Origin: Tubulanus polymorphus
Lineage: Eukaryota > Animalia > Nemertea
Assembly: GCF_964204645.1 (NCBI RefSeq)
Contig: NC_134030.1
Span: 19,490,210-19,554,209 of the forward strand
DNA length: 64,000 bases
Direction: 5' to 3'
A program made the position numbers and the translations under genes. The notes beneath the pieces were generated by a model. It had not been told where the DNA came from. It worked only from the letters and a program-made list of their open reading frames with translations, and did no database searches. The number at the start of each line of letters is the position of its first letter. The first letter of the stretch is position 1. Positions 9,990 through 63,530 of the stretch are shown one piece after another.

Positions 9990-10805
9990 GCTATAAAGGT
10001 ACTTTGTTTTAATGTAAAATTGAAAATATATTTTCATTCAAAGAGACTTCCGCGTGATATAAATGCATCTTCATTTTTCATTATTTCATCCCTTTTCATT
10101 TGTTTTTTTTTTCTTATCATGTTTATGTCACGGTGTCTGAACATCTTCTTGAATATACAGCCTTTATCGCTCTGCTCAGCTCCTGTAGCCTTATTGTCTG
10201 TAAGCTATTTTGTTATCTATTATTTTATATTGATGGTGACAAATAAACCACTATATATACCTCGCTGATCGCTCGATCATGACTCTTCTGAACTCATTCT
10301 CCTGAACTTTATAGCTTACTCATATGAGCTCCCCTGAAATTTACGAAATTTACTAACTCTCAGTTCCTTTCCCTAAGTTTCTTCATTCTCCTTTCGTTTT
10401 TACTGGGTGCTCGCGACAGCGGGCTTTGCATGGCCCACGTAGAAAGCTACCATTATAATTGTGTTTGTTCAAAAATTGTAAATCTATTGTTTGTTTGCTT
10501 ATTCGCTCAATCTCTGTACATAGCCTGTAAAACTTTCCGTGAAATAAATTTGACATTCAATGACAACTTCAACTTGAACACTGAGAGCAACACCTTTTCA
10601 TGGGAGGGGCTTGTTGGAAATAACGTCATTATGATGATAATGATATAATAATAGTTATAATAGTATCAATAATCTATTTGTTCGAATAGCGCTATATAAG
10701 ATAATCATAGCGTATTACAATAGTAATAGATTCAAATAACCGAATAACCATAGAAGCGATAACATTAAAAACCTCATTTTCTAATGAGTAAATACAGTTT
10801 ATTAA

Positions 10806-10842
10806 CACGAACGTTTTCGGGATCATATCCCCTCATCAGGTG
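10806..10842 (-). ncRNA. Minimal type I hammerhead ribozyme (PLE-type)
   Basis: CAC-CUGAUGA-G-GGGAU-AUG-AUCCC-GAA-AACGUU-C-GUG: core boxes, stem II, palindromic stem III, stem I CAC/GUG. Confidence 0.7.
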
Positions 10843-10924
10843 AAATACAAGTGAATCAAATGATTAAACTACAGGTTTATATAACCTAACGTATAACGTA
10901 TAATCATTTGATTCACTTGTATTT

Positions 10925-10961
10925 CACCTGATGAGGGGATATGATCCCGAAAACGTTTGTG
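10925..10961 (+). ncRNA. Minimal type I hammerhead ribozyme (mirror copy)
   Basis: CAC-CTGATGA-G-GGGAT-ATG-ATCCC-GAA-AACGTT-T-GTG. Confidence 0.65.
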
Positions 10962-11078
10962 TTAATAAACTGTATTTACTCATTAGAAAATGAGGTTTTT
11001 AATGTTATCGCTTCTATGGTTATTCGGATATTTGAACTCTCTTCCTAAGATCTAGTAATAGATTCAATCATGAAATTA

Positions 11079-11356
11079 TTAAAATGTCATTTTGTAAGTA
11101 GCAAGAGACATTGTACGTGGTAAAAGCTTTTCTAAATAGATATGTTTTCGGTTTTCGTCTAAAGCGTCGACAGATGGGTATTCCCGAATACTGAACGGTA
11201 AACACTTTATAGTGCTGGAGGAGTAAACTGCCAAATGACATTTTGGAGACAGGTTTGACCAGACGTGTGAACCGAGTGCCCTTGTGGGTATATTAACTGT
11301 TAAAACCGACCTTATACTATTCAGATGCAAGATGCAGATGTTTAACCCCTCAAAAA
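11079..11356 (-). pseudogene. Degenerate PAN/Apple-domain-like exon
   Basis: Phase-1 acceptor (CCTAG) then FEGLNICIL...VNIPTRAL-G-SHV-W-SNLSPK-C-HLAVYSSSTIK-C-LPF...Y. The spacing fits PAN CxxxC-x6-C-x11-C if GGT and TGG were Cys codons (one substitution each). Possible signal-like exon MGTLLPLLVFQASSR|gtaagt at ~11810-11854, but its phase does not match. Confidence 0.4.
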
Positions 11357-12562
11357 CTAGGTGTAAAAATTTGTATTCAATTTACAAATATGGGGCGGCG
11401 TGTTAAACAGTTTTTTTACAGATAGGTTCAAAGGGAGACTTATCTCAAGAATATATTGCTTAACAACACGTTGGAATTTCACACTAGAAAAAATATCGGG
11501 CAACCTGTGAAAACAGGACAGCAGTGAAGTTGGACGATTATCTTAAAGTAATGCTTTATCTAACTAGAACTGTAATACGATCGACATATCATTGACAGTG
11601 TCGTCGTATATGGGACAGTTTATGGAGGATCTCTTATTCATTCTAGGTACTATTTTTGGGGTCCGGCTCTACGCATCTTGGAGCTACTAACCTAGTGTGA
11701 TCTCTAAGCCTCCTCGATTGGCTGAGTAGCGTCGGTAACCGCCCGTCAGTTTGCCTACTAGAAAATTAACTATTTCATGTTTATAGATAATGTATGATTT
11801 CAAACTTACGCGGCTGGATGCTTGGAAAACCAATAAAGGCAATAAAGTGCCCATTAGGAATCCAAGCACCCAGGATTATTATGCAAATTATGCCAAATCT
11901 GTCAAAATCGATTCACCAAAACACCTGATCTGGTAGGGCAGACATTTTCCAACATAAGAAAATGGTTGAGTTGATTAAAAACTTATTTCTTAGAAACCTA
12001 GATGTTTAAGCCCACGGTGTTATCATCATCGACAAGAGGCTTGCGGAATCTAATTTCCCTTTTCCAATGAGTACGAAAAAGCGAACTCAGAGAACGCCAC
12101 ATTGTCTGAAAAACATTTCAAATTTTTAATCAAAGTTATCGAAAATAAAAAACGAGAATGGTCCGAGAAAGCGGCCCGAAAACTAGTTCAGATTTCGTGA
12201 TTAAGCGACGTGGTTGAAAAAAAAGAACTTAATTACGATAAAACGTTGCATAAATGCAAGCTAAAGGTCACCTAATCTATGATCAATGATTCTCGGTTCT
12301 TGCAGATAGGTGAAGTGCGATTAATCGCCATCGCTACGAGTTTGATATTTGATATTCCAACGCGACTTAAGACACATTTTTCTGACACGTAAGCGGGTCA
12401 CACCTGAAAACTGACGTAACCACGCATTTCACCGTACGTTCGGGAAGCTGAGAAAATCCGTGCAGCCGCAGTAGCAGTAGCAGCACTGATGTTGCCGGTA
12501 CTTTTAAAATCTACACATCGCCAAATACGACCTCTTCGAAATACACTCAACCACTCCCCAAC

Positions 12563-12838
12563 TAGAACTGTAACTCAACCCACGGTGAATTTCGGTTATC
12601 TGAGTTAGTCGACTATAGTCGAACTAAACGAAACCGAATGTCAGTTAGTCGGAACTATGGTCCAGAATTGGTCGACCACACGATTGACCACGGTCGCTGT
12701 AGTTCGGATACAGTTCCAAGATGGCCGACACTGTGAAATACGTTCTGACCGAACTATACTGCGTTCGGTTATTAGTTCCGACCTCTCAAGTCGACTAGCT
12801 ACGAAAACCGAAGTTCACCCGGCTTGAATTAGTTTTCT
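12563..12838. mobile_element. Degenerate MITE-like inverted repeat
   Basis: GGTGAATTTCGGTT..AGTTAGTCGACT pairs with AGTCGACTAGCT..AACCGAAGTTCACC. Confidence 0.5.
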
Positions 12839-12864
12839 TCCGTATGTTCGACGGGAACCAGTCT

Positions 12865-14604
12865 AATAAACCATTTTACAGTTGCTAGCCGCCATTTTGT
12901 TAGGGTACTTTTGTCCCATATTGTTGGGTCATTTTTTTCTCTTTTTCAAAAACTATCCGTGATGTGTATTGTATCATATTTCATCTGTCGATGGATGGAT
13001 TTTGACAACTTCAGCAACATTCAAACCGCGTGAATCTCTAGTTTTCAGTTATGTTAAAATCATTTCTCAAATTTACAACAATGCGACATGAGAGCGATAT
13101 AAAAATCGGTGGTCAGTTTTTGCCGTGCGCATAGAAATCCAGGGTACTGAACTTTGAAGTTCGTTATTTTCAGAAATAATTTTCTAAAAAATCCAAACAT
13201 TTCAAGCACTGTGCGCATAAACGCCCCCTTTCAGGTGAACTTTGAAATTTTAAGATATCTTGCCTAGTTTTTTTCCTATGGCTCTTTAACTGCAGCGCGT
13301 GTATTGTCATTCCGAGATTTGGCGCTGTTTTCTTTGCGTGTATTTCAGTATATGGGTGTTATTTCTTCATTTTCACTACACTTGTCTCTACGGAAAATGG
13401 TTTTAATTGTTGGTACGAGTATCAGGTTTAAATATTACGGCATTAATACTGTATTCCGTTCTCCGGCGCTAGTTCGTAATGGCTGTAATGGTAACCGCTT
13501 TTACGGCAGGCAGAGGCTTACGTACATGCACCCAAGAAAACCCAAAATATCACTCTTTTGTTGTAAATGCAATCCACACACTTCTTGCGTTTTTGGTGAT
13601 GGTAGATGTCACTTTTTACTTTTTATCACCTGCGTCTGACATTCGAAAAAAAGAAAACGTTTTCCTATATTTTCTTCCCAATCTAATCAATCTTGAGTGT
13701 ACTTAATAGAAAGTATTCATAGAAAGAAGCTGAATATTTGCCCCACCCCATTTGTCCAGCTTTTTGACCACTTCTCCATCCATCTAATTTCAGTAGATTT
13801 TTATGTAAATTTATTGATAGACTACTGATTTAAATGGTCATCATACTCGATTTTGAGTGCTATATTTCCTTTCTTCTTCCATCTCAATATAGGCCCATAT
13901 ATTCTCTTCCCGCGCGCAACTTCGAATGCGTGATCAAAATGCCGCTCAGTCTCGCTGCTAAAACTGGTCAGAAAAATCCCTTAAACCCCAACATCTCTAA
14001 TGTCTCCGATCTATTATATTGCATAAACGACGTGATATTTAAACCTGATACTCGTACCAACAATTAAAACCATTTTCCGTAGAGACAAGTGTAGTGAAAA
14101 TGAAGAAATAACTCCCATATACTGAAATACACGCAAAGAAAACAGCGCCGAATCTCGGAATGACAATACACGCGCTGCAGTTAAAGAGCCATAGGAAAAA
14201 AACTAGGCAAGATATCTTAAAATTTCAAAGTTCACCTAAAAGGGGGCATTTATGCGCACAGTGCTTGAAATGTTTGGATTTTTTAGAAAATTATTTCTGA
14301 AAATAACGAACTTCAAATTCAGTACCCTGGATTTCTATGCGCACGGCAAAAACTGACCACCGATTTTTATATCGCTCTCATGTCGCATTGTTGTAAATTT
14401 GAGGAATGATTTTAACATAACTGAAAACTAGAGATTCACGCGGTTTGAATGTTGCTGAAGTTGTCAAAATCCATCCATCGACAGATGAAATATGATACAA
14501 TACACATCACGGATAGTTTTTAAAAAAGAGAAAAAAATGACCCAACAATACGGGACAAAAGTACCCTAACAAAATGGCGGCTAGCAACTGTAAAATGGTT
14601 TATT
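12865..14604. mobile_element. Non-autonomous DNA transposon with ~575-bp near-perfect terminal inverted repeats
   Basis: Arms 12865-13439 and 14031-14604 (AATAAACCATTTTACAGTTGCTAGCCGCC...). No transposase inside. A diverged partial copy lies at ~40286-40445. Confidence 0.9.
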
Positions 14605-15265
14605 CAACCGACACGACAAAGCGGCAGATTGTACCACCCAAATTACAACCACAGTCTAGAAAATCTATTGTTTATCCCGACCCATGAGGGCGCTTAGTAA
14701 GACATAATTCGGTGCCTAGCAGATTTTTCGGGAGTCGGCTTTCCCCGTTCGCTTATAGTTCGCTGGCTCCTACATTGACTGACTATATTGGATCATTTAA
14801 CCCCACGATGACCTTTGAAGTGTTGCCCGCTCATTGTAAGTAGCCTGCAGCCAGATTCGAACCCGCTTACTGCCATCAAAACCAGGGCCGATTAATGCTG
14901 TTTTCATTAAGTCAATTTTCTATGTTGCTTTTACTTCATTCGGATCTTGGTTTCCTAAAGTAAACCATGTTTCATTGTTCATTTTAACTTCACAGTCGCT
15001 TTCGACTGTCTCGACTGGGTCTAAGATCAATGTATGAATGAACAGAGAAAATATAGAAGAAAAATCAAAACTGATTTTTCAATTCTTATTTATTCATGCA
15101 ATTTGGAAATAAATGATCTGTTCAGTGGAATATTACGTAGTTTTATAGAATCGTTTAAGCGAACGCGTTATGGTCGATCGGGAATCCCCGTCACCGTGTG
15201 ACATCACGGCTGAGATGATTTTCGGGACGATACTTTCGATTTTCCAAATTCGGTCAAAAAACTTC

Positions 15266-16277
15266 TCAATCCATAGTGTGATTATTGCAGCCGTTCTCAC
15301 CGCAACAGTGGTATCTTTCTAGTCTAAACCCGTCGTGGAGTCTTTCTATAATCGGCCGGAATCGAGCTTCGCTCATACAGCCGATAGGTGCCATGCAAAC
15401 TCGTTCGTACATTTTGACATCGCGCCAACTAGTCAACGCCTCCTGGTGAGTAAAACACGATCCAATATGGCCGCTACCCTTGGAATGTAGTGACAATGCG
15501 ATTGTTAAGTGAAATTTCGCGCGTATCCTTAGCGACATCTTTGAATTCACGCGCAGATTATTTCGAGCTTTTCGAGTAGAATTCAAGGTATATAAGCTAC
15601 TATGCAACTTACGGCACATCTAAAGCCAGTGGGGCACGTCCGCAAGAAGTGCTTTTGAGGTGTCAGACAATCAGCAGTTACCGGACTCACAGTCCACAGA
15701 TGAGCCAAATTTTCAGGCATTCTTGTATAATAGCCACAATGGTAACATTGCAAACCGGTCGTAGTACCTGGAAACAGTATTCAGATCACGGAATACAGGT
15801 ATATAGGCCCTATCAGACCCCGAACTTGAGTTCTGCAGTCCAGGGGGCGCTTCGCGGATGATTTGAAGCTCCCTTAGGCCCGAGTGAACTTCAATTCATT
15901 TGTGAAGCGACCACCAGGTGTCTCTTGACTGCGCAGCGTCGACCCATGGTTTAGAATGTTTATGTAAGATATCAATACTTTTTTTCACAGATGATTTAAA
16001 GCTCACATAAACCCGAGTGAACTTGAATTCATTTGTGAAGCGACCGCCAGGTGTCTCTTGACTGCGCAGCGTGGACTCATGGTTTAGAATATTTATGTAA
16101 GATATCACTACTTTTTGCACAGATGATTTAAAGCTCACTTAGGCCCGAGTGAACTTCAAGTCATTTGTGAAACGACCACCAGGTGTCTCTTGACTGGTTT
16201 AGAATGTTTATGTAAGACATGAACACTTTTTTCTCACCGGTTAACGTCAAAAACAGGAACATCTGAAGACGAAACAT
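15266..16277 (-). CDS. Secreted Ly6/uPAR (three-finger fold) protein, ~135 aa, 3 exons
   Basis: Exons 16277-16238 (MFRLQMFLFLTLT, G|gtgaga), 15767-15613 (GTTTGLQCYHCGYY...DCLTP...TCPTGFRCA|gtaagt) and 15478-15266 (GSGHIGSC...VC...GC...YHCCGENGCNNHTMD*). Phases 1/0 are consistent. Has the LxCYxC start and CCxxxxCN end. TATA-like TATATA ~50 nt upstream; AATAAA on - strand at ~15088-15093. Confidence 0.88.
15873..16236 (+). repeat. ~133-bp tandem repeat (2.7 units) in intron 1 of the three-finger gene
   Basis: CCCGAGTGAACTT recurs at 15879, 16012 and 16144. Confidence 0.9.
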
Positions 16278-17673: not shown

Positions 17674-18280
17674 AGAAATGTCTCAGACGAAGCACTGAAC
17701 ACATCTGAAGTGTGGACGATCAGTTTTTGAAAGTGTGCCAATAAAATGTCTAATATCTGGTGTTTGTAGTTCATTTTCAATCAAAATATCTCAGGTGAAG
17801 CACTGAACACGTGAAGTGTGGATGATCAGTTTTTGAAAGTGAGCTGATAAAATGTCTAATGTCTGGTGTTTGTAGCTCAATTTCAATTAGAAATGTCTCA
17901 GGTGAAGTAATGAATACATGTGAAGTGTGGACGATCAGTTTTTGAAAGTGTGCTGATAAAATGTCTAATGTCTGGTGTTTGTAGCTCAATTTCAATTAGA
18001 AATGTCTCAGGTGAAGTAATGAATACATGTGAAGTGTGGAAGATCAGTTTTTGAAAGTGTGCTGATAAAATGTCTAAAGTCTGGTGTTTGTAGTTCATTT
18101 TCAATTAAAATTGTCTCAGGTGAAGCACTGAACACATGTGAAGTGTGGACGATCAGTTTATTTGAAAGTGTGCTGATGAAATTCCTAATATCTGGTGCGT
18201 AGATAATTATCAACTGAAAATGTTTCACGGAAAGTTCTGAACACCTGGTGATGTACGTTCGATCAAGTTTTGAGAGTCGG
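17674..18280 (+). repeat. 109-bp satellite-like tandem repeat (~5.5 units)
   Basis: AGAAATGTCTCAGGTGAAG...GTGTTTGTAGTTCATTTTCAATT units at 17674, 17783, 17889, 17998 and 18107. Confidence 0.92.
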
Positions 18281-18849
18281 CTCAAAAAAATCTCTCATGA
18301 ATTTCGCACGATCAAAAGCGGAAGAAATGCGATTTAATAGTAATTTAATTCCTATTACGGCCCTTTCGCTGTAACACAATTTTCAAAATACTTTTCCATT
18401 AGATCGATGTCATCAGATTGTGAACTTTGTGCCTTTTTATCCGAAAGCTATAAACGGATAAAAAACAGTTTTTAGAACAGTTCCTCTTGTGTATTTAGAT
18501 CATCTAAAGTCAATAACGATTACGTGTGACGATTTAAAGATATCCGACAACATTCGTTACGAAATCGATTGCATTCTAGTGTTTGTATTCGGAATACTTT
18601 CATGGTCACACGAGAATACATTCTAAACTATTAAATTTCGCTATGTAGCGCCAGCGGCAAAAACGTAATTTGTCAAAATCGAAGGGTGTGGTGTAAGTTT
18701 AATTAGCATGCGATCGAGCGAAATATTATTTTGAAGTGACTCGTATTTCGATTTTGTAATCGCTGAACTGGATTTGGCCTTTTAAAGACCTTCGACAATC
18801 ATGCACATGATGCGTATTTCATAACTTTCGTTATTGCATCGAATAAGTG

Positions 18850-19370
18850 ATGTGCGTGTTCAGCACTTCACCAGAGGCAATTTCATTGAAAATGAATTGA
18901 CAAACACCTGCCATTTGACATTTGATTAGCATACTATCATAAACTGATCGTCGACACTTGACATTGTGTTCAGAGCTTCATCTGACTCGACATTTTAAAA
19001 TGAAAATGAATTATACAGACATTAGAAACTTTATCAGCGCACACAGAATTATCGCCCCCCCTTCCAGTGACTTAGACCAGCACTTCATCTGAGGCATTCT
19101 AAATTGAAAATGAACTACAGACACCAGACATTAGACATTTTATCAGCATACTTTCAAAAACTGATCGTCCACACTTCACATGTGTTCAGTGCTTCACGTG
19201 AGACATTTCTAATTGAAAATGAACTAACACCAGACAGACATTAGACATTTTATCAGCACACTTTCAAAAACTGATCGTCCACAGTTCACATGTGTTCGGT
19301 GTTTCACCTGAGACATTTTTAGTTGGAAATGAACTACAAACACCAGACATTAGAGATTTCATCAGCACAC
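18850..19370 (-). repeat. Same 109-bp repeat, inverted orientation (~4.5 units)
   Basis: CACCAGACATTAGACATTTTATCAGCAC..TTCAAAAACTGATCGTCCACACTTCAC is the reverse complement of the unit. Confidence 0.9.
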
Positions 19371-37209: not shown

Positions 37210-40184
37210 ATGCTCGCGAAAATCGTTCTCTTGTTGGTAATATTAAACAGTAAGTATTGAATATGTGATATTTGATTTCGTACAGTGATAGTAAAAGCGT
37301 AAGTGTTTTTTCAGATCAAAGGTCGAAAGGTCGAGCCCACTCTCCCTTTCAACCTTTAATCTGAAAAAACACTTAACATATTACTCTAATAATTTCATAT
37401 AAATGAACATTATTTATATGGAAATCATTGATTTCGAATAAAAGTATGAGTAAAGTGTGAGATTCATATGATATTCATATAAATGAACATTATTTATATA
37501 GATTTCGAATAAAAAAAATATGTAAAATAAATGGACAATTAAAAAGTAACGAGTTTATTAACGAGTTGAAGAAAATATAAATTTTAATGAAAGAAGTATT
37601 GATAAATGAATGAACAGATACTACCGTTCAAAGATATCGATTTACATGACTTAGAAAAATATTTTACAATTAACAATTTTATTCCTATTCGAAATTTGAT
37701 TAAAACTACACGTTTTCATTTTCAAGTGAATAACATGATTGAATTAATATTTGAAAATCATTATCTAATAATAGAGTTATCTAATGAAAAAGATAAAATC
37801 TTATTCAATATAATAATTCCAAATTCACAACATTTGATGAAATACATAAACATTTAATAATTACAGATAAAATACAATCACTTTTTAATAATGAAAATTC
37901 ACATAAAACATTATTTTTACACTTACGTTATCGTCCGTTGAGGGAATGCTATGTAATGTTTTTCAGAGTAGAAGAAAAAAGGTTCATCCTTGACAATCCA
38001 AATGAAAAATCTTTCAAAGATGATTTTTCGCTCGACGTTTCGACCTTTGATCTGAAAAAAACACTTACCCTATTGTAACTAGTGTTGTACCAATGCTTTA
38101 TTTTTGTTATGGTTTTGCGAATATGCGATGTAAAACTGGTTAATACGATTAAAACATTTACTGCATCTGTAAGACAAATAAAAGCACAACGAAGAGAATT
38201 TAGCAAAAAAAGTGTAAATTGATGGATTTAAAAAAAATAAATGACAACCCAACGACCGATTGAAGTCTGCTGCTCATTGGTGCTCGAAAGTATCTTTGAA
38301 GTTCAATCCAGCTTTCATTCGGTGTCGACATCGTGAAATAATCATATTAGGACAAAAAGAATAGTTAAACTTATTTCTTATTTTTTTGCTGACCGTAAAG
38401 GTTGATGCGACTGGCCGCCTTTATACTGTACATCACTTTCTAAAACTATGATTAAGCTAACAATAACCGGTCCATCAGTTATAGAAATGTTATTTGATTA
38501 CGAGTTCCATTGCAACGCAAGTGACCGCAAAACGATGAATAATATCTAGCCTAAAATAGAATATTTCATTTAGATATACATGCCAGTAGATTCGTTAAGG
38601 TTGGCGATCCCACAGAAGATATTGGAACTGGAGGTGGACTGGGAGCAAATTTGATGTATAATGTGACATTTCCTGCTGATGGTACAGTATACGGTTGGGA
38701 GTTCTACGTAACACGTGTCGCCCCCTGTCGGACGTGGATAACGATTTGGAGAAAATCAGATATAGATGAGCTGAACGTGACACTTGTCGCTAAAACACGT
38801 TTACAACACGCTGATCGAGGTTTACAAACTTTAATATACAACGCTACTGACAGAATAAAGGTATCTAAGATAGGGCTTTCTTTTCGCTACCGATAGATCA
38901 TTGAAAACGTAGGCGTGGCAATTTGATACTGTTAAGAGTTTGTGAGAAAATAACTTTAGAAAACCATTCAAAACTCGCTATTGATCCTTATTTATAGGAA
39001 ACATGATCATCAATTTTCAGGTAAAAGCCGGCGATTTCTTGGGAATCGCCCACAAGGTGCCCGACCCTGAGAATCAAGGACACTGCATTGCAAACAAAGC
39101 TTTCGGAAATCTTTCGAATCCATGCACCCACGTTGTGAATTGCGAAACTTTTGATATTTATTCACAGTCGATTGGATGGACGAAGACGGTGTTACGAAAC
39201 CGATTTTTGTGTCGACAATATTCAATAGCTGCATTGTATATACCGATCGATGGTAAGTCAGATGATTATTAAGAGATATAGGAAATTTTAGGAAATTACA
39301 AACTGTTGAAATTGAGGAATTAAACTCAATTTTAATGATTATCAATATCTTCCAAATTTTCAAATACAGGATGCACTACGGAACACGTTTGACATATATG
39401 ATCATATTGGTTTGTGTTTATGATTCTCAATAGCGCTACAACATGTAAATTCGTTTTCGATAATAAATTATGCATTATGAAGTGGCTGTCATCTGTACTC
39501 GATGGTCACCGTGCGCCTACGCGAGTCCGATGTTGAAATTTCACCGAGTGGGTTCGAGTTCGGCTGCTGGTTGCGAGCAACACTTCAAAGGCCGTACTCT
39601 CGTTGTTAGGTTATGAACAATCCTGTGATCCAAATGAACGCATGCAAATTAAAACCAACATACAATCCCGGACGAACGCGAAATGTAGGATTCGACCCCA
39701 AAAGCAGTGCTGGAAACCCTTTTTACCCCTGAGCCATCGCTGTCGGATACTACAGCTTCCCTTTATACTACTTAAAGCCTCACTCTTATCCCAACCCTCA
39801 TAACGTTCCTGAACCCTATACTATTCTCCCTAAATCATAATTTGTAAGGTTCAAAAGCCTTCATTTCTATTGTTCTTGTTGAAAACTATTCTTTGGCCTT
39901 AATCCTGACCATGTGATGTTGTTTGAATGATATTGGAATCACTTTCAGATTATCGATCACCAGCGCTGTATGCCGAATATGAATACACTACGGCTTCAAA
40001 CGATGTGATTGAAACGGCTGCTGGACACAGTTTGTTGACGTGCGCCGCCTGGTGTGCCAGATCGCAGCTGTGTATGTGGTATCAACATTTCGACGCGCAG
40101 AAAATATGTCAACTGTTCAACAGAAAAGCACCGCGACCTGAACGAGCATCATGCGATTCCAAGGGATGGAAGGCTTATGGATGA
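37210..40184 (+). CDS. Secreted unnamed-domain + PAN protein; paralog 3
   Basis: Exons 37210-37249 (MLAKIVLLLVILN), 38574-38860, 39021-39252 and 39949-40184. GT-AG, phases 1,0,1. Confidence 0.9.
37291..38077 (+). mobile_element. Unclassified hairpin-ended AT-rich insertion (element A) in intron 1 of paralog 3
   Basis: Left hairpin 37291-37385. Right end 38030-38075 is the reverse complement of the left arm. Internal ORF 37606-37857 is homologous to ORF 46679. Absent from the corresponding intron of the other paralogs. Confidence 0.75.
37606..37857 (+). CDS. Unknown element-encoded protein (probably truncated)
   Basis: YFTINNFIPIRNL...IELIFENHYLIIELSNEKDKILFN aligns with LFNIKNYISATNL...INQILSNEAYLIIELIDNGIKNPNIFN of ORF 46679. 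Confidence 0.5.
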   Translation: MNEQILPFKDIDLHDLEKYFTINNFIPIRNLIKTTRFHFQVNNMIELIFENHYLIIELSNEKDKILFNIIIPNSQHLMKYINI

Positions 40185-41994: not shown

Positions 41995-42790
41995 AGTGAA
42001 CTTGTTTTTAAGTTTTTACATTGTTTTGGTCTACTGGTTAGCGCGCTTGCTTTCTTGTACATGCGAGACCCAGTCTCCTATATGATATTATATCTTATTA
42101 CTATAATTATTATAATACAAATTGATATTATTATATGATATTATATAATGTAATGTAATGTACGGTACAATATAATATAAAGTTGTATTACCACAATTGT
42201 TTTCTTTGATAGCAAAGTGTGATTTTCGGTTATGGTCGTGGCTAAGACTTAAAACCGGATTAAGATCATTTCAGTTCTATAGTCAATCTAAAAACTTAAA
42301 ACCGATCTTAACATTTAAGACCATTTTTGGGAGTTAAGACTCGACGATGCGACCGGCCCCAGTTTTAATTGTTGGTGAAATGCTGAATCCCTGATGAATC
42401 CCTGATTCGGTTTTGAAATGAAGAATAAATGCCATTGAATCCGGTTTTATAGATCAATTAGTTTCAGACTCGTCTTCACGTTTCGTCTGATTTTGATTCT
42501 ACGGTTTATTACGATCCCCGTGTTAAAGTTGATACCAGTCAACAAAACTGGGCCCGAGTCATTTTGATTCACCGATGCGCGAGCTGTTAACTATATATAG
42601 CTTTAGGTAGGCCTACCAATAAATTTGTTTTCACCGGACGACGCATCAGGTTCGCTGAGGTTCATAAGCTAAAACTGATAGCTCTAATTAAGATTAATTA
42701 GCATATGACGGTTGTGTGATGAATTGAATCCTGAAATAGAGACCGGGAATTCCAGTTTAAAAAAAAGATATTTTTTCATCTATATATATA

Positions 42791-42964
42791 CAGTCAACCC
42801 CGGGTATACCGCCCACATTGGCGGAGAACGATTTGGCGGTATAGAGAGTATGGCGGTATATCGGGGGTGTTTTACTATGTATTTGTATAGAGATGTACAT
42901 TGAGAGAGACTGGCGGTAGGCGGGGTGCCAGTTTATGGGAGTGCGGTATATCGAGGGTTGACTG
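42791..42964. mobile_element. Tc1/mariner(pogo)-type MITE
   Basis: TA|CAGTCAACCCC...GAGGGTTGACTG|TA, i.e. TIRs with TA duplication. Confidence 0.85.
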
Positions 42965-43220
42965 TAGTTGTACATTAGGTAAATTTGATGTCAATGATCT
43001 TTTCGTTGCTGATCTATTTCGTATATACGAACGCTGAATTCCAGTATCACGAAAAAAATATCCGATTCAATTTGTTAACTAACTAACGTTTTTAATGTTT
43101 TATTCAGTGAACAATACCGCAGTCATTGGTTACGAAAAAAAACTGAATATTGATTAGGAAGAATATGTAAGCGGAGAGAGCTCTGAACCAGTCGCTATTC
43201 GTACTGTTTTTAGTGACACG

Positions 43221-46042: not shown

Positions 46043-46061
46043 ATCTCCATAATTGAAAATA

Positions 46062-46200
46062 CAGTCAACCCCCGATGTACCGCCCTCCCATTTACCGCCA
46101 CCCTCGCCTACTGCTCGGTTTTCTCAATATACATCTCTATACAAATACATAGTAAAACACCCCCGATATACCACCCTCCCATTTACCGCCATCCCCGCCA
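46062..46200 (-). mobile_element. Truncated second copy of the 42791-42964 MITE, cut by element B
   Basis: TA|CAGTCAACCCCCGATGTACC...CATCTCTATACAAATACATAGTAAAACACCCCCGATATACC is the reverse complement of the first copy. Ends abruptly at the hairpin. Confidence 0.8.
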
Positions 46201-46430
46201 GTAATAGGGATAATAGGGGTTCAGGCCAAAGGTCGAAGGGTCGAGCTCGTAAAAAATGAAAAATAAATTCTCGCACGCTCTAATTTATTTTTCATTTTTT
46301 ACTCACTCGCCCCTTCAACCTTTAACCTGAACCCCTATTATCCCTATTACTCTTAAAACATTCATATATATGAATCACATATACATGAATAACTTCTAAA
46401 ATCAATTTTAATAAAAAAATTAATATCAAA

Positions 46431-47245
46431 ATGGGAGCAAATAAGAAGTACTACTGTCAAACATGTAGAATTAATATAGATAAATCCCAAAAAGCAAGAC
46501 ACGATAAAACTAGAACACATTTAGAAAATAAATTAAATATAAAGATGATATATAAGAAACTAAATTAGATGAATTAAAGAATGATAAAGAAACATACAAA
46601 TGTGATACACGTAATCAATCATTCGGTGATAAAATATATTATAAAGAACATTTAAAATCTAAACGTCGTATTAGAAATATGAATAATGATAACTTATTTT
46701 CATTATTTAACATTAAAAATTATATCTCAGCAACAAATTTAGTGTATGGAAGACAATATAAAATTGATATTATTTCTATAATCAATCAAATATTATCAAA
46801 TGAAGCATATTTAATTATTGAACTGATAGATAATGGAATCAAAAATCCTAACATATTTAATACAGTTTTAAATCTTAAAGAAACTTTAGATGAAAAAATT
46901 ATAAATATTCTTGAAACTCCTTTCAATGAAAGAAATGATGATTTAATACTTTCTAGAGGTTACAATAATTTGATTAACTTAAGAATTGAAAAAAGACAAT
47001 TATATTATTTAAATTTTGATGATAAACCAATTATCTATAATGAAAATTCATCAAATATTGGTATTCAATGTGAATTAGATGATGAAAAATCATTTAAAGA
47101 TGTTGGAACTCAATGTAACTTAGATAATGAATTAGAAAATTCAATCCTAATGAGAAAGTGTATTGTTATTGTGGAGGCAAATATTTAAGATCACATAAAT
47201 CAAAACATTATCAAACAGTTGAACATATCGAATATGAAAATCATG
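46431..47245 (+). pseudogene. Frameshifted multi-zinc-finger ORF of element B
   Basis: YYCQTC..ARHDKTRTH; (frameshift) YKCDT[R]NQSF..KEHLKSK; the shared YLIIEL domain (ORF 46679-47188); (frameshift) EKVYCYCGGKYLRSHKSKHYQT. Confidence 0.65.
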
Positions 47246-47267
47246 AGAAATATATATTGATTTCATT

Positions 47268-49310
47268 ATGTCGCATTTAAATTTAATCATAAATAATGTA
47301 TCCCCACTAATAGAAGTTAAGAAGAAAGTTCATATTTACGAACCATGGATGTCTAAATCAATTTCAAAATGCTCTAAGAAATGCGATCAACTTTATAAAA
47401 AAGTATTGAATCTGGACAAATCTGACCAACGTTATAAAAACTATATTCTTTACAGAAATAATTTAAATTACATTAAAAGGCGTCAAAAGAAATCGTACTA
47501 TGCAAACAAAATTGTATTATTTTCCAATAATAGTCGCAAATTATGGCAATTTTTGAAGCAATCCACAGGTAAATTAAATGACAAATCGGGGATCCCTAAT
47601 AAATTCATCATCGATAATAAACTTGTTGAGGAACCTAAATCAATAAGCCAACAATTTTGTAACTTCTTTTCTTCGATTGGTAGCTCTTATGCAAACAAAT
47701 GTCCAAGTTCTAAAAACAATTTTACAACTTACATGGGGGCAAGGAATGCCCACTCAATCTTTTTAAATCCAACCAACAAGGAGGAAATCTTGAGGATTAT
47801 CAACAACCTAGCCCCAAAAAAGACCACTGGTGGTAATGACTTACTGAATAATAGAATGCTTAAACTAATTATATCCAATATTATCGATCCTCTGACAATT
47901 CTCTGCAATAAATCCCTTCAGGATGGTATATTTCCAGATAGTATGAAAATTTCTCAGGTAATTCCTATATATAAAAATGGAAACAAACAGCTCCTTAATA
48001 ACTACCGACCAATATCTTTACTTCCGGTCATGTCGAAAATACTAGAAAAATTAGTTCACAATAGACTTTATAAATTTCTATGCAAACATAACATACTGAA
48101 TAACAGCCAATATGGATTTAGACCAAAACACTCTACTACTCACGCAATCACAGAATTTACAGGCTCTATACTACAAAATCTTGAAAAGGGGGATCACTCC
48201 CTTGGCCTCTTTCTGGACTTATCTAAGGCTTTTGACTCCCTCGATATCAACAAATTATTATTTAAATTATCCCACTATGGTATTCGAGGTCATGCCTATA
48301 ATTGGTTCAAATCATATTTATGCAATCGTAAAATATTTGTTAAATTCAATAATGCCTACTCTTCCTATAATACCGTTTCATTTGGTGTCCCACAGGGATC
48401 GGTCCTTGGGCCCTTACTTTTTCTTATTTATGTCAATGATCTTAATCACAACCTCTGCTACACTAAAGCTGTTTCCTTTGCAGATGATACTAACTTACTT
48501 ATTTCCAACAAACATATGAATTTACTATTGCATAATGCTAAAATTGATCTCAATATTATCATTGACTGGTTTAACTCAAATAAACTCACTCTTAACATAG
48601 ATAAGACTAAGTGCTTACTTTTTTCAAAAGATAAAACCATTGACAAATCATTATACAAAATAGTATTTGGAAAACACTCTCTTGAAATAGTAAACTCTAC
48701 TAAATTTCTTGGTTTGCTAATTGATGATCGTCTAAATTGGGAACCTCATGTAAAACAATTAATTAACAAATTAAACAAAAATTTATATCTTTTAAGAAGC
48801 TTAAAAAATCTCATTCCCTGCTGGACTAAAAAACTGTTATATATAAGCTATATCCAAAGTCACCTAACGTATGCACTTATTGCGTGGGGGCCAATGTTAT
48901 CATCTAGTCAATCCAAAAGTCTCTTTACTATTCAGAAAAAAGCACTAAGACTCATCGAAAACTCAGCTTATAACGCCCCAACAGGTCCTATTTTCAAAAA
49001 ATATAAAATACTCAAATTCCATGATCTGATTCAACTGGAAATTATCAAATTAGGATTTCAATACACTCATAACTCCCTCCCAACTCCACTGCTAAATTTA
49101 TTTCATCATAATTTTAACTTCCACTCCCACAATACCAGACAGTTTAACTATGCGAGAGCTGCTTTCCATAAATCCAAATTATACAGTAAATCCTTCTTAG
49201 CTCAGATGCCTAGTATTTGGCGAAATACTCCGAATGTTATCCGTTCATCCACCAGCATAAATTCACTATCATTCCAATTTAAAAAACAAATATTACTGAA
49301 ATACGCGTAA
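47268..49310 (+). CDS. LINE ORF2 reverse transcriptase (endonuclease domain missing)
   Basis: NYRPISLL, QYGFR, FLDLSKAFD, GVPQGSVLGPLLFLIYVND, FADDT and KFLG motifs. 680 aa uninterrupted. Confidence 0.95.
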   Translation: MSHLNLIINNVSPLIEVKKKVHIYEPWMSKSISKCSKKCDQLYKKVLNLDKSDQRYKNYILYRNNLNYIKRRQKKSYYANKIVLFSNNSRKLWQFLKQSTGKLNDKSGIPNKFIIDNKLVEEPKSISQQFCNFFSSIGSSYANKCPSSKNNFTTYMGARNAHSIFLNPTNKEEILRIINNLAPKKTTGGNDLLNNRMLKLIISNIIDPLTILCNKSLQDGIFPDSMKISQVIPIYKNGNKQLLNNYRPISLLPVMSKILEKLVHNRLYKFLCKHNILNNSQYGFRPKHSTTHAITEFTGSILQNLEKGDHSLGLFLDLSKAFDSLDINKLLFKLSHYGIRGHAYNWFKSYLCNRKIFVKFNNAYSSYNTVSFGVPQGSVLGPLLFLIYVNDLNHNLCYTKAVSFADDTNLLISNKHMNLLLHNAKIDLNIIIDWFNSNKLTLNIDKTKCLLFSKDKTIDKSLYKIVFGKHSLEIVNSTKFLGLLIDDRLNWEPHVKQLINKLNKNLYLLRSLKNLIPCWTKKLLYISYIQSHLTYALIAWGPMLSSSQSKSLFTIQKKALRLIENSAYNAPTGPIFKKYKILKFHDLIQLEIIKLGFQYTHNSLPTPLLNLFHHNFNFHSHNTRQFNYARAAFHKSKLYSKSFLAQMPSIWRNTPNVIRSSTSINSLSFQFKKQILLKYA

Positions 49311-49445
49311 TTATTCATCTCCCGTTGAGGAAAAACTTGGTATGTGTTTAGTCTTAACTAAACTTGACTAGACTGCTATACTAGACTATCTATCTTTGTA
49401 ATCATTATTATCTGTGGCATTTGCTTCCTCCATATTTGTAATCAA

Positions 49446-49446
<1 letters not shown>

Positions 49447-49489
<43 letters not shown>

Positions 49490-49731
49490 CAATCATTATT
49501 ATTATTATTATTACTATTATTATTATTATTATTATCATTATTATTATTATTATCACTTTTATTATTATCATTATGAGTATCTTTACCTAAATTACTGAAA
49601 TATTAATGGTTATGGTATATTGCCGTAATTATGATTATCATTGTATTTGTATTTGTATAAGTTATTGTTGTCATCATTATTAGAATTGTTATTATCATTA
49701 TTAGTATTAGTATTATTATTATTAGAATTTG

Positions 49732-49789
<58 letters not shown>

Positions 49790-49920
49790 GATTAGCATTA
49801 CATGTATTATTATTGTTAGCATTATTATTATTATAATTATCATTATTATTATTATTATTATTATTATTGATTAGCATAATTATTATTGTTAGCATTAAGA
49901 TTATTAATAGCATTATTTAT
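49447..49920. repeat. (ATT)n-rich microsatellite in LINE 3' UTR
   Basis: Directly visible. Confidence 0.95.
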
Positions 49921-50179
49921 AAGTATCACTGCACATTCCCCTGCACTCTGCACAAGGTTCCAGCGCCTTAATTTTATGTACAGCCTGTTGGCTTGCACTG
50001 GATACCTCGTAACTGGTTTACGAAAATAAATTATTATTATTATTATTAAAAAAGATTAAGCTGTATGAGTAATCGGAAAATTTCAAATATCATAACTCAA
50101 AAATAATAATTAAACTCTAAATATTCATATTCAAAATAAGATATTTCAAATTACTTTGAATTTTTTTTTCTTAAAATAA

Positions 50180-50401
50180 ATGGATGATTTCGGCATTCCA
50201 ACTGGGAAAAAAGATTTGAAACATTATTTAGTTGCTGGAGGTTTAATATTGGCAGCACTTTTGTTTTACTATGAGAACATTAGTAAAGATTTGATGAATG
50301 AAAATATAAAATTGAGTAAAAAGTTAAAGAAGTTAAATGGAAACAATCACAGAAAAAATAACAATAAAAAGGTTAATGATTTAAATGATATTGAGGATTA
50401 A
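50180..50401 (+). CDS. Small single-TM protein of element B
   Basis: ATG-started 73 aa with hydrophobic YLVAGGLILAALLFYY followed by a basic, coiled-coil-like tail. Confidence 0.45.
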   Translation: MDDFGIPTGKKDLKHYLVAGGLILAALLFYYENISKDLMNENIKLSKKLKKLNGNNHRKNNNKKVNDLNDIED

Positions 50402-50448
50402 AACAACATCTTTTCATTTAATTTATTTCATATATTTTGACCATAAAA

Positions 50449-50754
50449 ATGAGTGAAAATAAGGTATTAGAAATATTACATCTAATATATAAAAATCAAC
50501 AGAATATTAAATCAATTATTATGATTTCAGGTTTATTTTCTTTCTCAGTTTATACTATAAAACAGTTGTTAGAATTTTAGGATAGCTGTAAAATTAGAGA
50601 CGCTGAATTGAAAGATAACATAAATTATATTCTAGATAGATTGAATTATATTAAATGCTGTGAAATTTGTAATAAAAGATATACAAATTTAAAGAGTTTA
50701 AAAACTCATAGATATATTCATGAATTAGATGATAGGTTACATAATTCAAATTAA
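50449..50754 (+). pseudogene. TM + C2H2 zinc-finger ORF with one in-frame stop
   Basis: MSENKVLEIL..SIIMISGLFSFSVY..F*DSC..CEICNKRYTNLKSLKTHRYIH. Confidence 0.55.
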
Positions 50755-51585
50755 GATAAATGATATTTCAAATAATGCCCCCTTATGTCTTTATTGTCTT
50801 TAGTAGGCTTAGTACTTTTAGTACATAAAGAATAAATCTTTATTTTATTAGTAGTTGAAAAATAAAATAGAACTACTAAACTACTAAGGAGATAAAGACC
50901 CAGTTTCAATAATAATATTTATTTATCACAGAGATTTATTATATATTACTGTTTTAAAATAATAATTATCATAGATTTATTAAATATTACTGTTTCAGTA
51001 ATGATAAATATATGTCTTTATTTTCTTTAGTAGTTTTAGTACTTTTTGAAAATAATTTAAATCAGTAAGAATAATATAAAGATTTATTCTTTATGTACTA
51101 AAAGTACTAAAACTACTAATGACAATAAAGATACAACCAACCATTAAGGGTAAAAGAATATTTTAAAGCGTAAGGTTTCAGCTAACTCTAACTCTTTTTC
51201 AATTTTTAATTTATTTTAATAAAAATTTGATATATAAATGTACCCCAAATAATGAACAATACATTGAATCTTCATTAAGTGGTTGAAAAATTATATAATT
51301 CAAATTGAGAATAAGACTGTTAAATTGGTTGAAAATATAAAATATTGGCTGAAATATTAGTTAATTGAAAAAAAGGGGTTGGGGTATTAATGTATTAAAT
51401 ACGTATCTAATACGTATTGATGTAATAAATACGTATTAATGGTATTAAATACGTATTAATGTATTAAATACATATTATGCTTTATTTCTGAAAATGAAGT
51501 CACAGAAGTAATTTATGTTTTAATTCATTCAAATATGATATTGTAATTCTTTACATTTGACTAGGATAATACAAGAGTGATATTA

Positions 51586-51906
51586 GTTAGTTGGCTTATT
51601 CAATTAGAGAAACAATAAAATAAAATTAACAGTTAAAATTATTTAATTTCTTTTTAAATCTTGGTAAATTCTATTCAGTCTATTGTTCAACAAGAATTGA
51701 CTAGAATTCAAGTAGATTCAACAAGAAATTAAATGATTTTAACTGTTAGTAGTTTCTATTTAATTTCTTATTGAATCTATTTGAATTCTAGTCAATTCTT
51801 GTTAAACAATAGACTGAATAGAATTTAACAAGATTTAAAAAGAAATTAAATAATTTTAACTGTTGATATTATTTTATTGTTTCTCTAATTGAATAAGCCA
51901 ACTAAC
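51586..51906. repeat. Long AT-rich hairpin (~150-bp arms)
   Basis: GTTAGTTGGCTTATTCAATTAGAGAAAC... pairs with ...GTTTCTCTAATTGAATAAGCCAACTAAC. Confidence 0.9.
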
Positions 51907-59356: not shown

Positions 59357-59594
59357 GATAAATGAAGAAATCCCACACTTCGAATTTGAAATTATACTAT
59401 CAAATTTATTATTACGAAACCACAACGTTTCGGCTGTTGACTAACAGCCATCATCAGGTGGAATGATGATGGCTGTTAGTCAACAGCCGAAACGTCGTGG
59501 TTTCGTAACAATAAATTTGATAGTATAATTTCAAATTCGAAGTGTGGGATTTCTTCATTTATCTACAGTTTACACGGATTATAGTGTTTATTCG
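59357..59594. mobile_element. Palindromic Penelope-like remnant
   Basis: ~100-bp inverted arms 59357-59563, a ~30-nt unpaired tail, flanking direct repeat, and a hammerhead at the centre. Confidence 0.8.
59420..59461 (-). ncRNA. Minimal type I hammerhead ribozyme
   Basis: CCAC-CUGAUGA-U-GGCUGUU-AGUC-AACAGCC-GAA-ACGU-U-GUGG. The mirror arm has a GUC triplet but lacks the 5' stem I strand. Confidence 0.75.
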
Positions 59595-62140: not shown

Positions 62141-62734
62141 CTGAAACTATATACATAGCAACAAAGTTTAGCGAACATGTCTCACATTTGGTTTACCTGG
62201 GTTTACGGGCCTACTGTGCTTAGTGTTTCTTTCTAAAAGTCAAAGCCTAACCACCGATTGGCCATTATTTGCTCCTGATTCACTAAATTAAATTCTAGTC
62301 TCTTCCATGTGAGTTTTACTATTCAGACTAATTTTGAATTACTGTAACCGGCTGGTTGTTGTTGTATCGGCAGGCTGGCTGGGGAACTAGCACTTACACC
62401 AGCGGTACAGAATTCCATCCACCAGGCACAACAAGGCAGTTAAACCTTATATGTACAATCTTTATTGCATTCCGGAATGAGAATGATTATTATAACTTTA
62501 CATAGGCCTTATATGCAGAATCATGAGTATTATATGAGAACTAGGTGGCAGACAAGTTGTAGACATCAGGACTCACAAACTAACACCTAGTGACATGTTT
62601 GAGAGACATTGATTAATTATTGATGAGCACTGACTATAGCTAATTATTATAACATGTTGATTGCGATTAAAGCACATATCGATACTATATTCATAAGTTA
62701 TTCACATTATTAATATTATTAACAGCCTTAACAG

Positions 62735-63530
62735 AAGTACCTGTTTTAACTTATGGCTGCCAAATATGGGGTTTCAATGAACAAAGAAATCTGGAGAGAA
62801 TCCCTCTCAAATTTTATAAATACCTCCTGGGAGTTAAAAACTCAACACCAGATAATTTTGTATTTAGTGAAATTGGTCAATATCCCATATACATCCAGCA
62901 AAGAATGTTAATTGTGAAATACTGGCTTAATATACTTAAAATACAACCCGAGAAACTAACTAAGCTGATTTACAATCAAATGCTAGATGATATCATACGC
63001 GATCACCGTGTAACTAACTGGGCTTCTTCGGTTAGAGATCTATTGAATGGCCAATTCTGGTTAGACCAGCAAGTTGACAATGAAAAGTGGTTCCTGCACT
63101 CAATCGAAGTTAGAATGCTTGATCAGTTCAAACAGCTATGGCATACTTTTTTCGAAAACTCATCTAAAGCCAAATACTTTCGTGAATTTAAGAAGGGAGT
63201 AATCTATGAATCATATCTAGATTTACCTAAGGAGGTACGCACTAGGATTGCAAGGTTTAGATGTTCTAGTCTTGATCTGTTAGTCGAAACTGGACGTTGG
63301 GCCAGACCTAAGATACCTCATAATAATCGTATTTGCCGATGTTGTAATCGGAATGAAATTGAGGATGAGTACCATTTTGCTTTAATATGTCCTGCATACT
63401 CTGGCTTAAGATTAAGTTAGTATGCATCGAGAACTTACTGGACAAATCCGAACAAAGAAAAATTCATACACTTAATTTCCAGTACCTAGTAAATTATACA
63501 ATCTTTCCACTTTTCTTAGGAAAGCCTTTA
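62735..63530 (+). mobile_element. 3' fragment of non-LTR retrotransposon (RTEX-like) ORF2
   Basis: LTYGCQIWG..KFYKYLLGVK..SEIGQYP..KYW..RFRCSS..L.VETGRW..RICRCC..EIEDEYHFALICPAY C-terminal zinc-knuckle region. RT core absent. Confidence 0.85.

What the first reader, a model, noticed from the sequence alone, without database searches (positions are those of the whole stretch)
46201..51906. Element B: virus-like AT-rich insertion with terminal hairpin, zinc-finger and membrane ORFs, homologous to element A
Seen: it starts abruptly inside a MITE with a 150-nt hairpin sharing core and downstream TATTACTCT..TTCATATA.ATGAA with element A. It carries tightly packed intronless ORFs (matrin-like C2H2 fingers, a KVYCYCGGKY..H..H finger, a YLIIEL domain shared with A, a small TM protein, TM+C2H2). 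It ends in nested inverted repeats (50785-51135), short tandem repeats (~51385-51475) and a 320-nt hairpin. No transposase, integrase, Rep or capsid is visible. Known: CxCG..H..H fingers and such ORF packing are common in Polinton-like and large DNA viruses. Inference: two diverged members of an undescribed endogenous virus-like/mobile family; best candidate for a novel element system here.
Basis: partly seen in the sequence, partly recalled or inferred. Interest (0 to 1): 0.8.

Follow-up and report, generated by a model that had tools for sequence, protein, structure and literature searches.

The report
Hairpin-ended Maverick-like satellite transposon relic
This is a real, many-copy, decayed mobile DNA element in an invertebrate genome; its ends resemble those of virus-like Maverick/Polinton transposons but it carries only small orphan genes, so it likely moves with a helper's enzymes, and its left end folds into a conserved hairpin that likely serves as its copying origin.

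Summary
The anatomy is real. B (46200-51906 minus a young LINE, 2.9 kb, 21% GC) and A (37290-38080) are two subfamilies of one repeated element. Contigs of three runs cover both far deeper than their flanks, and other A copies continue into B-like sequence. The family starts at AGT. A ends at ACT with a ~50-bp inverted end and a 5/6 match to a 6-bp target duplication: Maverick/Polinton-type ends. No polymerase, integrase or capsid gene is present, and no protein relatives were found. B's right border is a scar, not a clean end: no target duplication, and half the host MITE is missing. The 321-nt hairpin is therefore best read as the centre of a ~5.5-kb foldback element that lost one arm (inferred). 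The distinctive feature is the left hairpin: A and B differ by 10 compensatory pairs yet share 3 identical mismatches, and the minus strand folds better. Best reading (0.55): a non-autonomous, probably foldback Polinton-like satellite moved by an unseen helper. This scan noted similar elements in other invertebrates. New variant of a known kind; interest 0.5.

The parts
46059..46199 (+). Host MITE, left part only (TACAGTCAACC end), interrupted by B
   Evidence: 83% to the intact copy at 42789-42966; its last 62 nt have no match downstream of B
46200..46351 (.). Left terminus of B: AGT...ACT hairpin with 70-nt arms; outer arm = TIR-like end, inner arm = imperfect inverted copy
   Evidence: z -17; 10 compensatory pairs and 3 identical mismatches versus A; minus strand folds better
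46361..46374 (.). Palindrome TTCATATATATGAA; TTCATAT also precedes ORF2 and ORF3 and occurs three times in A; possible promoter element (inferred)
46431..46568 (+). ORF1 piece a: U1/matrin-like C2H2 finger; separated from piece b by a frameshift
   Evidence: zf-U1 E 0.0017, below cut-off
46556..47188 (+). ORF1 piece b (210 aa): degenerate finger, YLIIEL domain shared with A, two IQC/TQC motifs resembling LC8-binding motifs (label recalled)
   Evidence: no relatives
47131..47258 (+). ORF1 piece c: CxCG..H..H finger in another frame, cut by the LINE
   Evidence: no viral or phage relative
47259..50047 (+). Secondary insertion: 5'-truncated young LINE (RT frame open to 49310, (ATT)n-rich tail)
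   Evidence: RVT_1 E 8e-35; run contigs start matching at 47259, extend 216-402 nt further 5' and differ at 4 of 1072 nt
50180..50401 (+). ORF2: intact 73 aa, one hydrophobic segment followed by a charged tail
   Evidence: no relative
50449..50754 (+). ORF3: hydrophobic segment plus C2H2 finger, broken by an in-frame stop at 50578-50580
   Evidence: no relative
50783..51136 (.). Nested inverted repeats (one ~45-67-nt unit twice direct, once inverted)
51384..51477 (.). Short tandem/palindromic GTATTAAATAC repeats
51586..51906 (.). 321-nt hairpin (149-nt arms, 6 mismatches, centre 51746); the repeated sequence stops at its outer edge; likely the centre of a foldback element with the stub of the lost mirror arm (inferred)
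37290..38080 (+). Element A: sister subfamily; AGT start with hairpin 37290-37385, YLIIEL ORF pieces 37606-38021, internal deletion at 38022, inverted left end 38030-38080 ending ACT; flanks AGTGAT / AGTGTT
   Evidence: absent from three paralogous host units

Best explanation
B is a decayed copy of a many-copy mobile element that is likely a non-autonomous satellite of Maverick/Polinton virus-like transposons, likely copied and inserted by a helper's protein-primed polymerase and integrase. Shown: one family with two subfamilies (A, B); a sharp AGT left terminus; an inverted ACT right terminus in A; small same-strand orphan ORFs; no core genes; a later LINE insertion; a scarred right border in B. 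Inferred step 1: the helper's integrase recognises the ~50-bp AGT/ACT ends and makes a 6-bp duplication. Inferred step 2: the inverted copy next to the left end lets the displaced minus strand fold its own 3' end into a duplex. This local version of the 'racket' intermediate proposed for Polintons would re-create the origin without needing the far end, and the three conserved mismatches would be part of the recognition site. Inferred step 3: synthesis folds back at the 321-nt palindrome, giving a mirror-symmetric molecule of about 5.5 kb with a left end on both sides. B would be one arm plus ~160 nt of the other, after a deletion that also removed the second half of the host MITE. A would be a copy that kept both ends and lost the middle. 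The finger and membrane proteins would be accessory cargo; their function is untested.
For: Repetition: in run X1, summed contig depth is 2,657-112,028 over non-LINE B from 46302 to 51683 and 947 in the last bin, against 43-63 in the flanks. Over A it is 1,324-15,426 in most bins (604 in one) against 31-32 in the flanks. Runs X2 and X3 show the same shape. One family: protein score 75, 0 of 5000 shuffles; at 38022, seven contigs from the three runs continue into sequence that matches B from 47103 (28 of 30 letters, compared by eye). True left end: four X2 contigs leave at 37290 into mutually unlike sequence (median 140 nt, agreement 0.52), and B starts at the same AGT. A is a clean insertion: three paralogous host units have 26-27 nt (24k, 28k) or ~75 nt (53k) between the flanking anchors, and no A. 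Ends: TIR 37293-37336/38030-38074 at 91%; flanks AGTGAT/AGTGTT, chance of at least 5/6 = 0.006 for one fixed position. PMC8097293 gives (AGT)2//(ACT)2 ends, 6-bp duplications, TIRs of 46-1,447 bp and flanking accessory ORF regions. Hairpin: of 43 pairs, 24 are the same, 10 compensatory, 3 unpaired with identical letters in A and B, and 6 unpaired in one copy. One compensatory pair lies between two retained mismatches. Ten changes against 1-3 when partners are slid. Minus strand -64.9 vs -57.7 (B) and -30.3 vs -26.5 kcal/mol (A). Foldback: repeat depth ends with the palindrome; no TSD, right TIR or MITE half follows; at 51719 both arms of this copy agree with each other while most contigs differ; one contig joins 46458 to 50755 on opposite strands.
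Against: No helper Polinton was seen: no genome is held and the window has no core-gene hit. The end motif is AGTAAT (B) or AGTAAA (A), not the exact (AGT)2. A's right end has three extra bases relative to the left, so its boundary involved a choice and the 0.006 is optimistic. The TSD rests on one copy with one mismatch, and the paralogous empty sites are too diverged (~70%) to confirm it. None of the proteins links to Polintons. 'Hairpin' has 0 occurrences in the two Maverick papers checked. No contig spans the palindrome's centre and continues into a mirror arm; the opposite-strand joint is one contig with 36 letters on its short side. Covariation rests on two sequences and may reflect few events. 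Depth is not a copy number, and the three runs are one study (at most two samples), possibly the assembly's own source.
Confidence: 0.55

Rival explanations
1. B is the left end (TIR plus accessory-gene region) of an ordinary full-length Polinton/Maverick, cut off at an internal palindrome; A and the many short copies are deletion products.
For: Same ends as above. Most intact vertebrate Mavericks have accessory ORF regions outside the core modules, and 96% of loci are degraded (PMC8097293). Depth falls from the left end inward.
Against: 2.9 kb from the end without reaching any core gene. The repeat stops exactly at the outer edge of a 96% palindrome, which a plain truncation does not explain well. 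The left part is covered up to ~2,000 times the flank depth, whereas Polintons generally take a low fraction of a genome (bioRxiv 10.1101/2023.08.22.554363, passage).
Confidence: 0.2
2. A new kind of small linear replicon with two different hairpin ends (152 and 321 nt) that self-primes from the folded 3' end of its minus strand, like parvoviral rolling-hairpin replication, and becomes integrated.
For: The stem ends exactly at the terminal base in both A and B. The minus strand carries the G-T wobbles and folds better. Conserved mismatches and a longer, branched right hairpin recall parvovirus ends (recalled; AAV rolling-hairpin initiation seen only in an abstract, PMC11575299). Total 2.9 kb.
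Against: No Rep/NS1 or capsid hit. A ends in an inverted left end with a likely TSD, which points to an integrase. B's right border lacks the host MITE's second half.
Confidence: 0.12
3. A non-autonomous Helentron/Helitron2 (HINE, DINE-1-like) that captured small ORFs and moves by rolling circle.
For: The topology of A (5' TIR, adjacent inverted repeat, 3' TIR) matches DINE-1 (PMC4067079, passages). Depth falls from one end.
Against: HLE2 TIRs are 11-18 nt and subterminal, insert between T and T, make no TSD and are followed by a 3' stem-loop. Here the TIR is ~50 nt and terminal, B follows C and A lies between T and A, a likely TSD is present, and no stem-loop follows A's right TIR.
Confidence: 0.08
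4. A chance mosaic: independent foldback MITEs (152-nt, 354-nt, 321-nt) piled into AT-rich decayed DNA.
For: The window has other unrelated foldbacks (10731-11036, 59357-59563). No listed contig bridges 51585 (table cut).
Against: The left hairpin is linked to the same ORF in two subfamilies. Depth is high and continuous across all non-LINE parts. The 321-nt hairpin has no TSD and a depth similar to its neighbours. At most the last hairpin could be a separate insert.
Confidence: 0.05

Closest known systems
Maverick/Polinton elements (vertebrate Mavericks, PMC8097293, 7 passages and section 7; nematode Polintons, bioRxiv 10.1101/2023.08.22.554363, 6 passages)
   Same: AGT...ACT ends, TIR within the 46-1,447 bp range (A), likely 6-bp TSD (A), intronless ORFs next to the end, mostly decayed copies with secondary insertions
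   Different: No pPolB, integrase, ATPase, protease or capsid; 0.8-2.9 kb (perhaps 5.5 kb) instead of 13-25 kb; end motif not exactly (AGT)2; a conserved hairpin at the terminus, which those passages do not mention
Foldback non-autonomous mini-Polintons noted by this scan in a sea urchin (5.6 kb) and an annelid (5.9 kb) (AI notes e1-9924924, e1-7276049; unchecked)
   Same: Maverick-type ends, small zinc-finger or unknown cargo, similar size if B is mirrored (5,516 nt)
   Different: B keeps only one arm; it has three cargo ORFs and a separate covarying terminal hairpin; no sequence look-alike was found among earlier findings
Helentron/HLE2 non-autonomous elements (DINE-1, HINE; PMC4067079, PMC11417382, 12 passages each)
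   Same: 5' TIR with an adjacent inverted repeat and a 3' TIR; very high copy number
   Different: TIR length, insertion site, likely TSD and missing 3' stem-loop all differ
Parvovirus-type hairpin-ended genomes (features recalled)
   Same: 3' end of the minus strand would be base-paired in a hairpin with fixed mismatches; a longer hairpin at the other side
   Different: No Rep/NS1 or capsid; TIR and likely TSD in A; the right hairpin is not shown to be terminal

Membership tests
Maverick/Polinton | TIRs (46-1,447 bp) with AG...CT ends | tested here: met
   A: 37293-37336/38030-38074, 91%; starts AGT, ends ACT. B has only the left end.
Maverick/Polinton | Exact (AGT)2//(ACT)2 or (AG)3//(CT)3 end motif | tested here: inconclusive
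   B AGTAAT (5 of 6); A AGTAAA left, GTAACT right; only two decayed copies
Maverick/Polinton | 6-bp target-site duplication | tested here: inconclusive
   A: AGTGAT/AGTGTT, 5 of 6, p about 0.006 at a fixed position; B: none
Maverick/Polinton (autonomous) | pPolB and retroviral-like integrase | tested here: not met
   No Pfam hit in any B or A ORF scanned; longest non-LINE frame 210 aa
Maverick/Polinton (autonomous) | ATPase, protease, major and minor capsid genes; 13-25 kb | tested here: not met
   2.9 kb of non-LINE sequence, no such hits
Non-autonomous Polinton derivative | An autonomous Polinton in the same genome shares the termini | not testable with these tools
   No genome held; read contigs give at most 30 letters beyond the laid stretch
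Foldback (palindromic) mini-Polinton | Whole element is a mirror repeat around a central hairpin | tested here: inconclusive
   Only 149-nt arms survive; indirect support
Helentron/HLE2 | 11-18-nt subterminal inverted repeats | tested here: not met
   TIR about 45-50 nt and terminal (vs 79, 80)
Helentron/HLE2 | Insertion between T and T, no TSD, 3' stem-loop | tested here: not met
   B follows C; A lies between T and A with a likely TSD; no stem-loop after A's right TIR
Helentron/HLE2 | Inverted repeat next to the 5' TIR | tested here: met
   Left hairpins of A and B
Parvovirus-like endogenous element | Rep/NS1 and capsid genes | tested here: not met
   No Pfam or PHROGs hit
Parvovirus-like endogenous element | Hairpins at both true termini | tested here: inconclusive
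   Left shown; right border is a scar

The most novel reading that the evidence does not exclude
A family of animal satellite replicons whose left end is a selected single-strand hairpin origin (compensatory stem, three fixed mismatches, minus-strand fold). The hairpin lets a one-ended or snap-back molecule be copied by a Polinton-type polymerase, or by self-priming, without the far end, and the family spread to hundreds or thousands of copies carrying orphan zinc-finger and membrane genes. This would be the animal counterpart of defective-interfering or transpoviron-like parasites of Polintons, and would give a concrete sequence handle on the untested 'racket' replication intermediate.
Probability: 0.2. 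Interest if true: 0.75.

Novelty: new variant of a known kind. Interest (0 to 1): 0.5.

Why it matters
Polinton replication through a folded single-stranded intermediate is a proposal from sequence analysis (PMC4196379, passages). A terminal hairpin that keeps its pairing through 10 compensatory changes while holding three mismatches fixed is the kind of natural experiment that can define such an origin, and it names the strand involved. Non-autonomous Polinton satellites are barely covered in the searchable papers: one paper held any of six phrasings, and there it referred to Tlr1. An abundant family with orphan cargo would therefore add to what is known of how these virus-like elements are parasitised and how they fill invertebrate genomes. 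If the family proves to be only broken ends of ordinary Polintons, it is routine repeat annotation.

Tried and rejected
Protein searches without result: ORF1b against 5.8 billion proteins (188 candidates, none); A/B alignment at longer and near lengths (1212 and 25 candidates, none); HMMER against 1.84 billion representatives (2 hits, both tandem-repeat artefacts); ESM Atlas (no usable hit, and best 0.82 on unnamed ~50-aa clusters); PHROGs, NCBIfam and Pfam (nothing convincing); PDB sequences; phage tblastn; viral contigs; metagenome contigs. These collections hold little animal repeat DNA, so the blanks show neither novelty nor absence. DNA patterns of the hairpin core found nothing in viral, metagenome or prokaryote contigs; Rfam found nothing. 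AlphaFold2 models were unusable (pLDDT 37.6 and 45.8). Fold searches gave no E <= 0.001 and a best Z of 3.4. The top four rows were PD-(D/E)XK-type nuclease folds, which is a lead only. An OB-fold idea for the YLIIEL domain was recalled and found no support. No RNA holder was listed, which says nothing on expression. The contig joint 47227-50213 skips the LINE plus ~196 nt, so it is not a clean LINE-free site. No paralogous empty site exists for B in the window. Paper searches for a description of this family or of hairpin-ended/foldback Polintons gave none. PMC11251423 (4 passages) and PMC2836005 (8 passages) were not informative, PMC5718144 (7 passages) gave general features, and Kapitonov and Jurka 2006 was not held. 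No supplements were read; repeat libraries such as Repbase or Dfam, which may already hold this family, could not be searched.

Full report
Observation. The described features are at the stated places. B starts at 46200, inside a MITE whose intact copy lies at 42789-42966. Its non-LINE parts are 21% GC against 35-40% in the flanks. The three folded regions are far beyond shuffles: z -17.0 (46200-46351), -13.8 (50783-51136) and -29.2 (51586-51906). The 210-aa frame of ORF1 beats 1000 of 1000 shuffles, while the 73-aa ORF2 does not stand out by length (99 of 1000). ORF1 is broken by two frameshifts and by a 5'-truncated young LINE at 47259-50047 (RVT_1 E 8e-35; 4 differences in 1072 nt to a run contig). 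ORF3 has an in-frame stop. Finger matches are below Pfam's curated cut-offs. No transposase, integrase, polymerase, Rep or capsid family was hit in 13 + 50 ORFs scanned.

A multi-copy family. No assembly was available, so I laid contigs of three public runs (one study, at most two samples, possibly the assembly's source). On B, 3090, 815 and 604 contigs were laid, most at 90-95% identity. In X1 the summed depth is 112,028 and 83,837 over the first ORF, about 18,000-19,000 to the LINE, 7,400-12,300 over ORF2/3, 2,700-3,900 over the repeat region and 947 in the last bin, against 43-63 in the flanks. The tool warns that this is no copy number, but repetition by one to three orders of magnitude is clear, and it stops with the outer edge of the 321-nt hairpin. 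A is repeated as well. A and B are one family. Their YLIIEL domains align with score 75 (0 of 5000 shuffles; best of 864 window ORFs), and their hairpin DNA with 69 (maximum 43 in 2000 shuffles). Where the window's A breaks off at 38022, 1, 3 and 3 contigs of X1, X2 and X3 continue into sequence matching B from 47103 (28 of 30 letters by eye).

The ends. A supplies what B lacks. Four X2 contigs leave A at 37290 into mutually unlike sequence (agreement 0.52), so the AGT there is the true terminus, and B starts at the same AGT. A closes with an inverted copy of its left end (91% over 45 nt) ending in ACT at 38080. That stretch has single-copy depth, so this junction is peculiar to the copy. The flanks are AGTGAT and AGTGTT. 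A match of at least 5 of 6 has chance 0.006 at a fixed position, but the right end carries three extra bases, so the boundary involved a choice. Three paralogous host units lack A at this intron position; they are too diverged to confirm the duplication. Vertebrate Mavericks have (AGT)2//(ACT)2 ends, 6-bp duplications, TIRs of 46-1,447 bp and accessory ORF regions beside the core (PMC8097293, 7 passages and section 7). Helentron-type elements share the 'TIR plus adjacent inverted repeat' layout but have 11-18-nt subterminal repeats, TT targets, no duplication and a 3' stem-loop (PMC4067079 and PMC11417382, 12 passages each), which do not fit.

B's right border. After 51906 there is no copy of the left flank hexamer, no copy of the left end and no trace of the MITE's last 62 nt on either strand. 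The border is therefore a deletion or rearrangement scar. Its coincidence with the edge of a 96% palindrome is most simply explained if the palindrome is the centre of a mirror-symmetric element and the deletion took most of the second arm together with the MITE half. The arm without the LINE is 2,758 nt, giving 5,516 nt in all. Weak support: both arms of this copy agree at 51719 where most contigs differ, and one contig joins 46458 to 50755 on opposite strands (36 letters on the short side). Against: no listed contig crosses the centre into a longer mirror arm, and the tables are cut. This reading was prompted by earlier AI notes on 5.6- and 5.9-kb foldback mini-Polintons in a sea urchin and an annelid. 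Those notes are unchecked and count as leads only; no sequence look-alike was found among them. Other notes call this genome a ribbon worm (not tested).

The left hairpin. Over 43 ungapped pairs, A and B share 24 identical pairs, differ by 10 compensatory pairs, share 3 unpaired positions with identical letters, and have 6 positions unpaired in one copy only. Sliding the partners gives 1-3 double changes instead of 10. One compensatory pair sits between two retained mismatches, which block copying of one arm onto the other would not readily give. Two of the three shared mismatches are G-T wobbles on the minus strand, which folds more stably in both copies. That is the strand whose 3' end lies at this terminus. 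With only two sequences this is suggestive, not proof. The core AAAGGT(C/T)GAA(A/G)GG occurs five times in the window, all in A and B ends (0.05 expected). 'Hairpin' does not occur in the two Maverick papers checked.

Mechanism. Shown: the family, its termini, its cargo and its decay. Inferred: (1) integration by a helper Polinton's integrase; (2) copying by the helper's protein-primed polymerase, with the hairpin giving the displaced minus strand a local duplex origin, in place of the end-to-end 'racket' proposed for Polintons (PMC4196379, 3 passages); (3) fold-back at the central palindrome, giving left ends on both sides; (4) frequent deletion, giving copies like A and the fall in depth from the end inward. 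The cargo proteins have no detectable relatives, and their models are unusable. Because only broken pieces were used as queries, sensitivity was limited.

Verdict. Real, repeated, and not an autonomous Polinton: the core genes were tested and are absent. It most likely works as a Polinton-dependent satellite (0.55). The rivals are the broken left end of a full Polinton (0.2), a self-priming hairpin-ended replicon (0.12), a Helentron derivative (0.08) and a mosaic (0.05). Ten paper searches found no description of the family, but repeat databases and supplements were not available. New variant of a known kind; interest 0.5, owed mostly to the covarying terminal hairpin.

Noticed in passing
window 23800-56300: Tandem array of diverged host gene units (repeated exons at 24242, 28725, 38566, 54294 and at 26490, 31647, 39942, 56028; weak PAN-domain hits at 31638 and 45719). 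A sits in the intron after a signal-peptide-like first exon of one unit.
   Followed up: partly
window 47259-50047: Young LINE family: 687-aa open RT frame, contigs 99% identical, depth about 5-10 times the flanks, 470-nt (ATT)n-rich 3' region.
   Followed up: partly
window 12865-14604: 1.7-kb non-coding element with ~590-bp TIRs at 98% identity; not related to A or B.
   Followed up: no
window 10731-11036 and 59357-59563: Two further foldback elements (139- and 100-nt arms, 98%), unrelated to B; the first is flanked by a repeated AGTAATAGATTCAA.
   Followed up: no
window 46059-46199 and 42789-42966: MITE family with TACAGTCAACC ends and an internal ~91-nt repeat that varies in number among contigs.
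   Followed up: partly
window 50714-50756 and 51268-51310: The 3' end of ORF3 is repeated at 77% 554 nt downstream, perhaps the remnant of a fourth small ORF.
   Followed up: no
window 62671-63420: 249-aa open frame that looks like the C-terminal end of another LINE (no Pfam hit at E 0.5).
   Followed up: no
window 4947-6542 and 7352-8239: 39-nt repeats in inverted blocks and a 42-nt tandem array.
   Followed up: no
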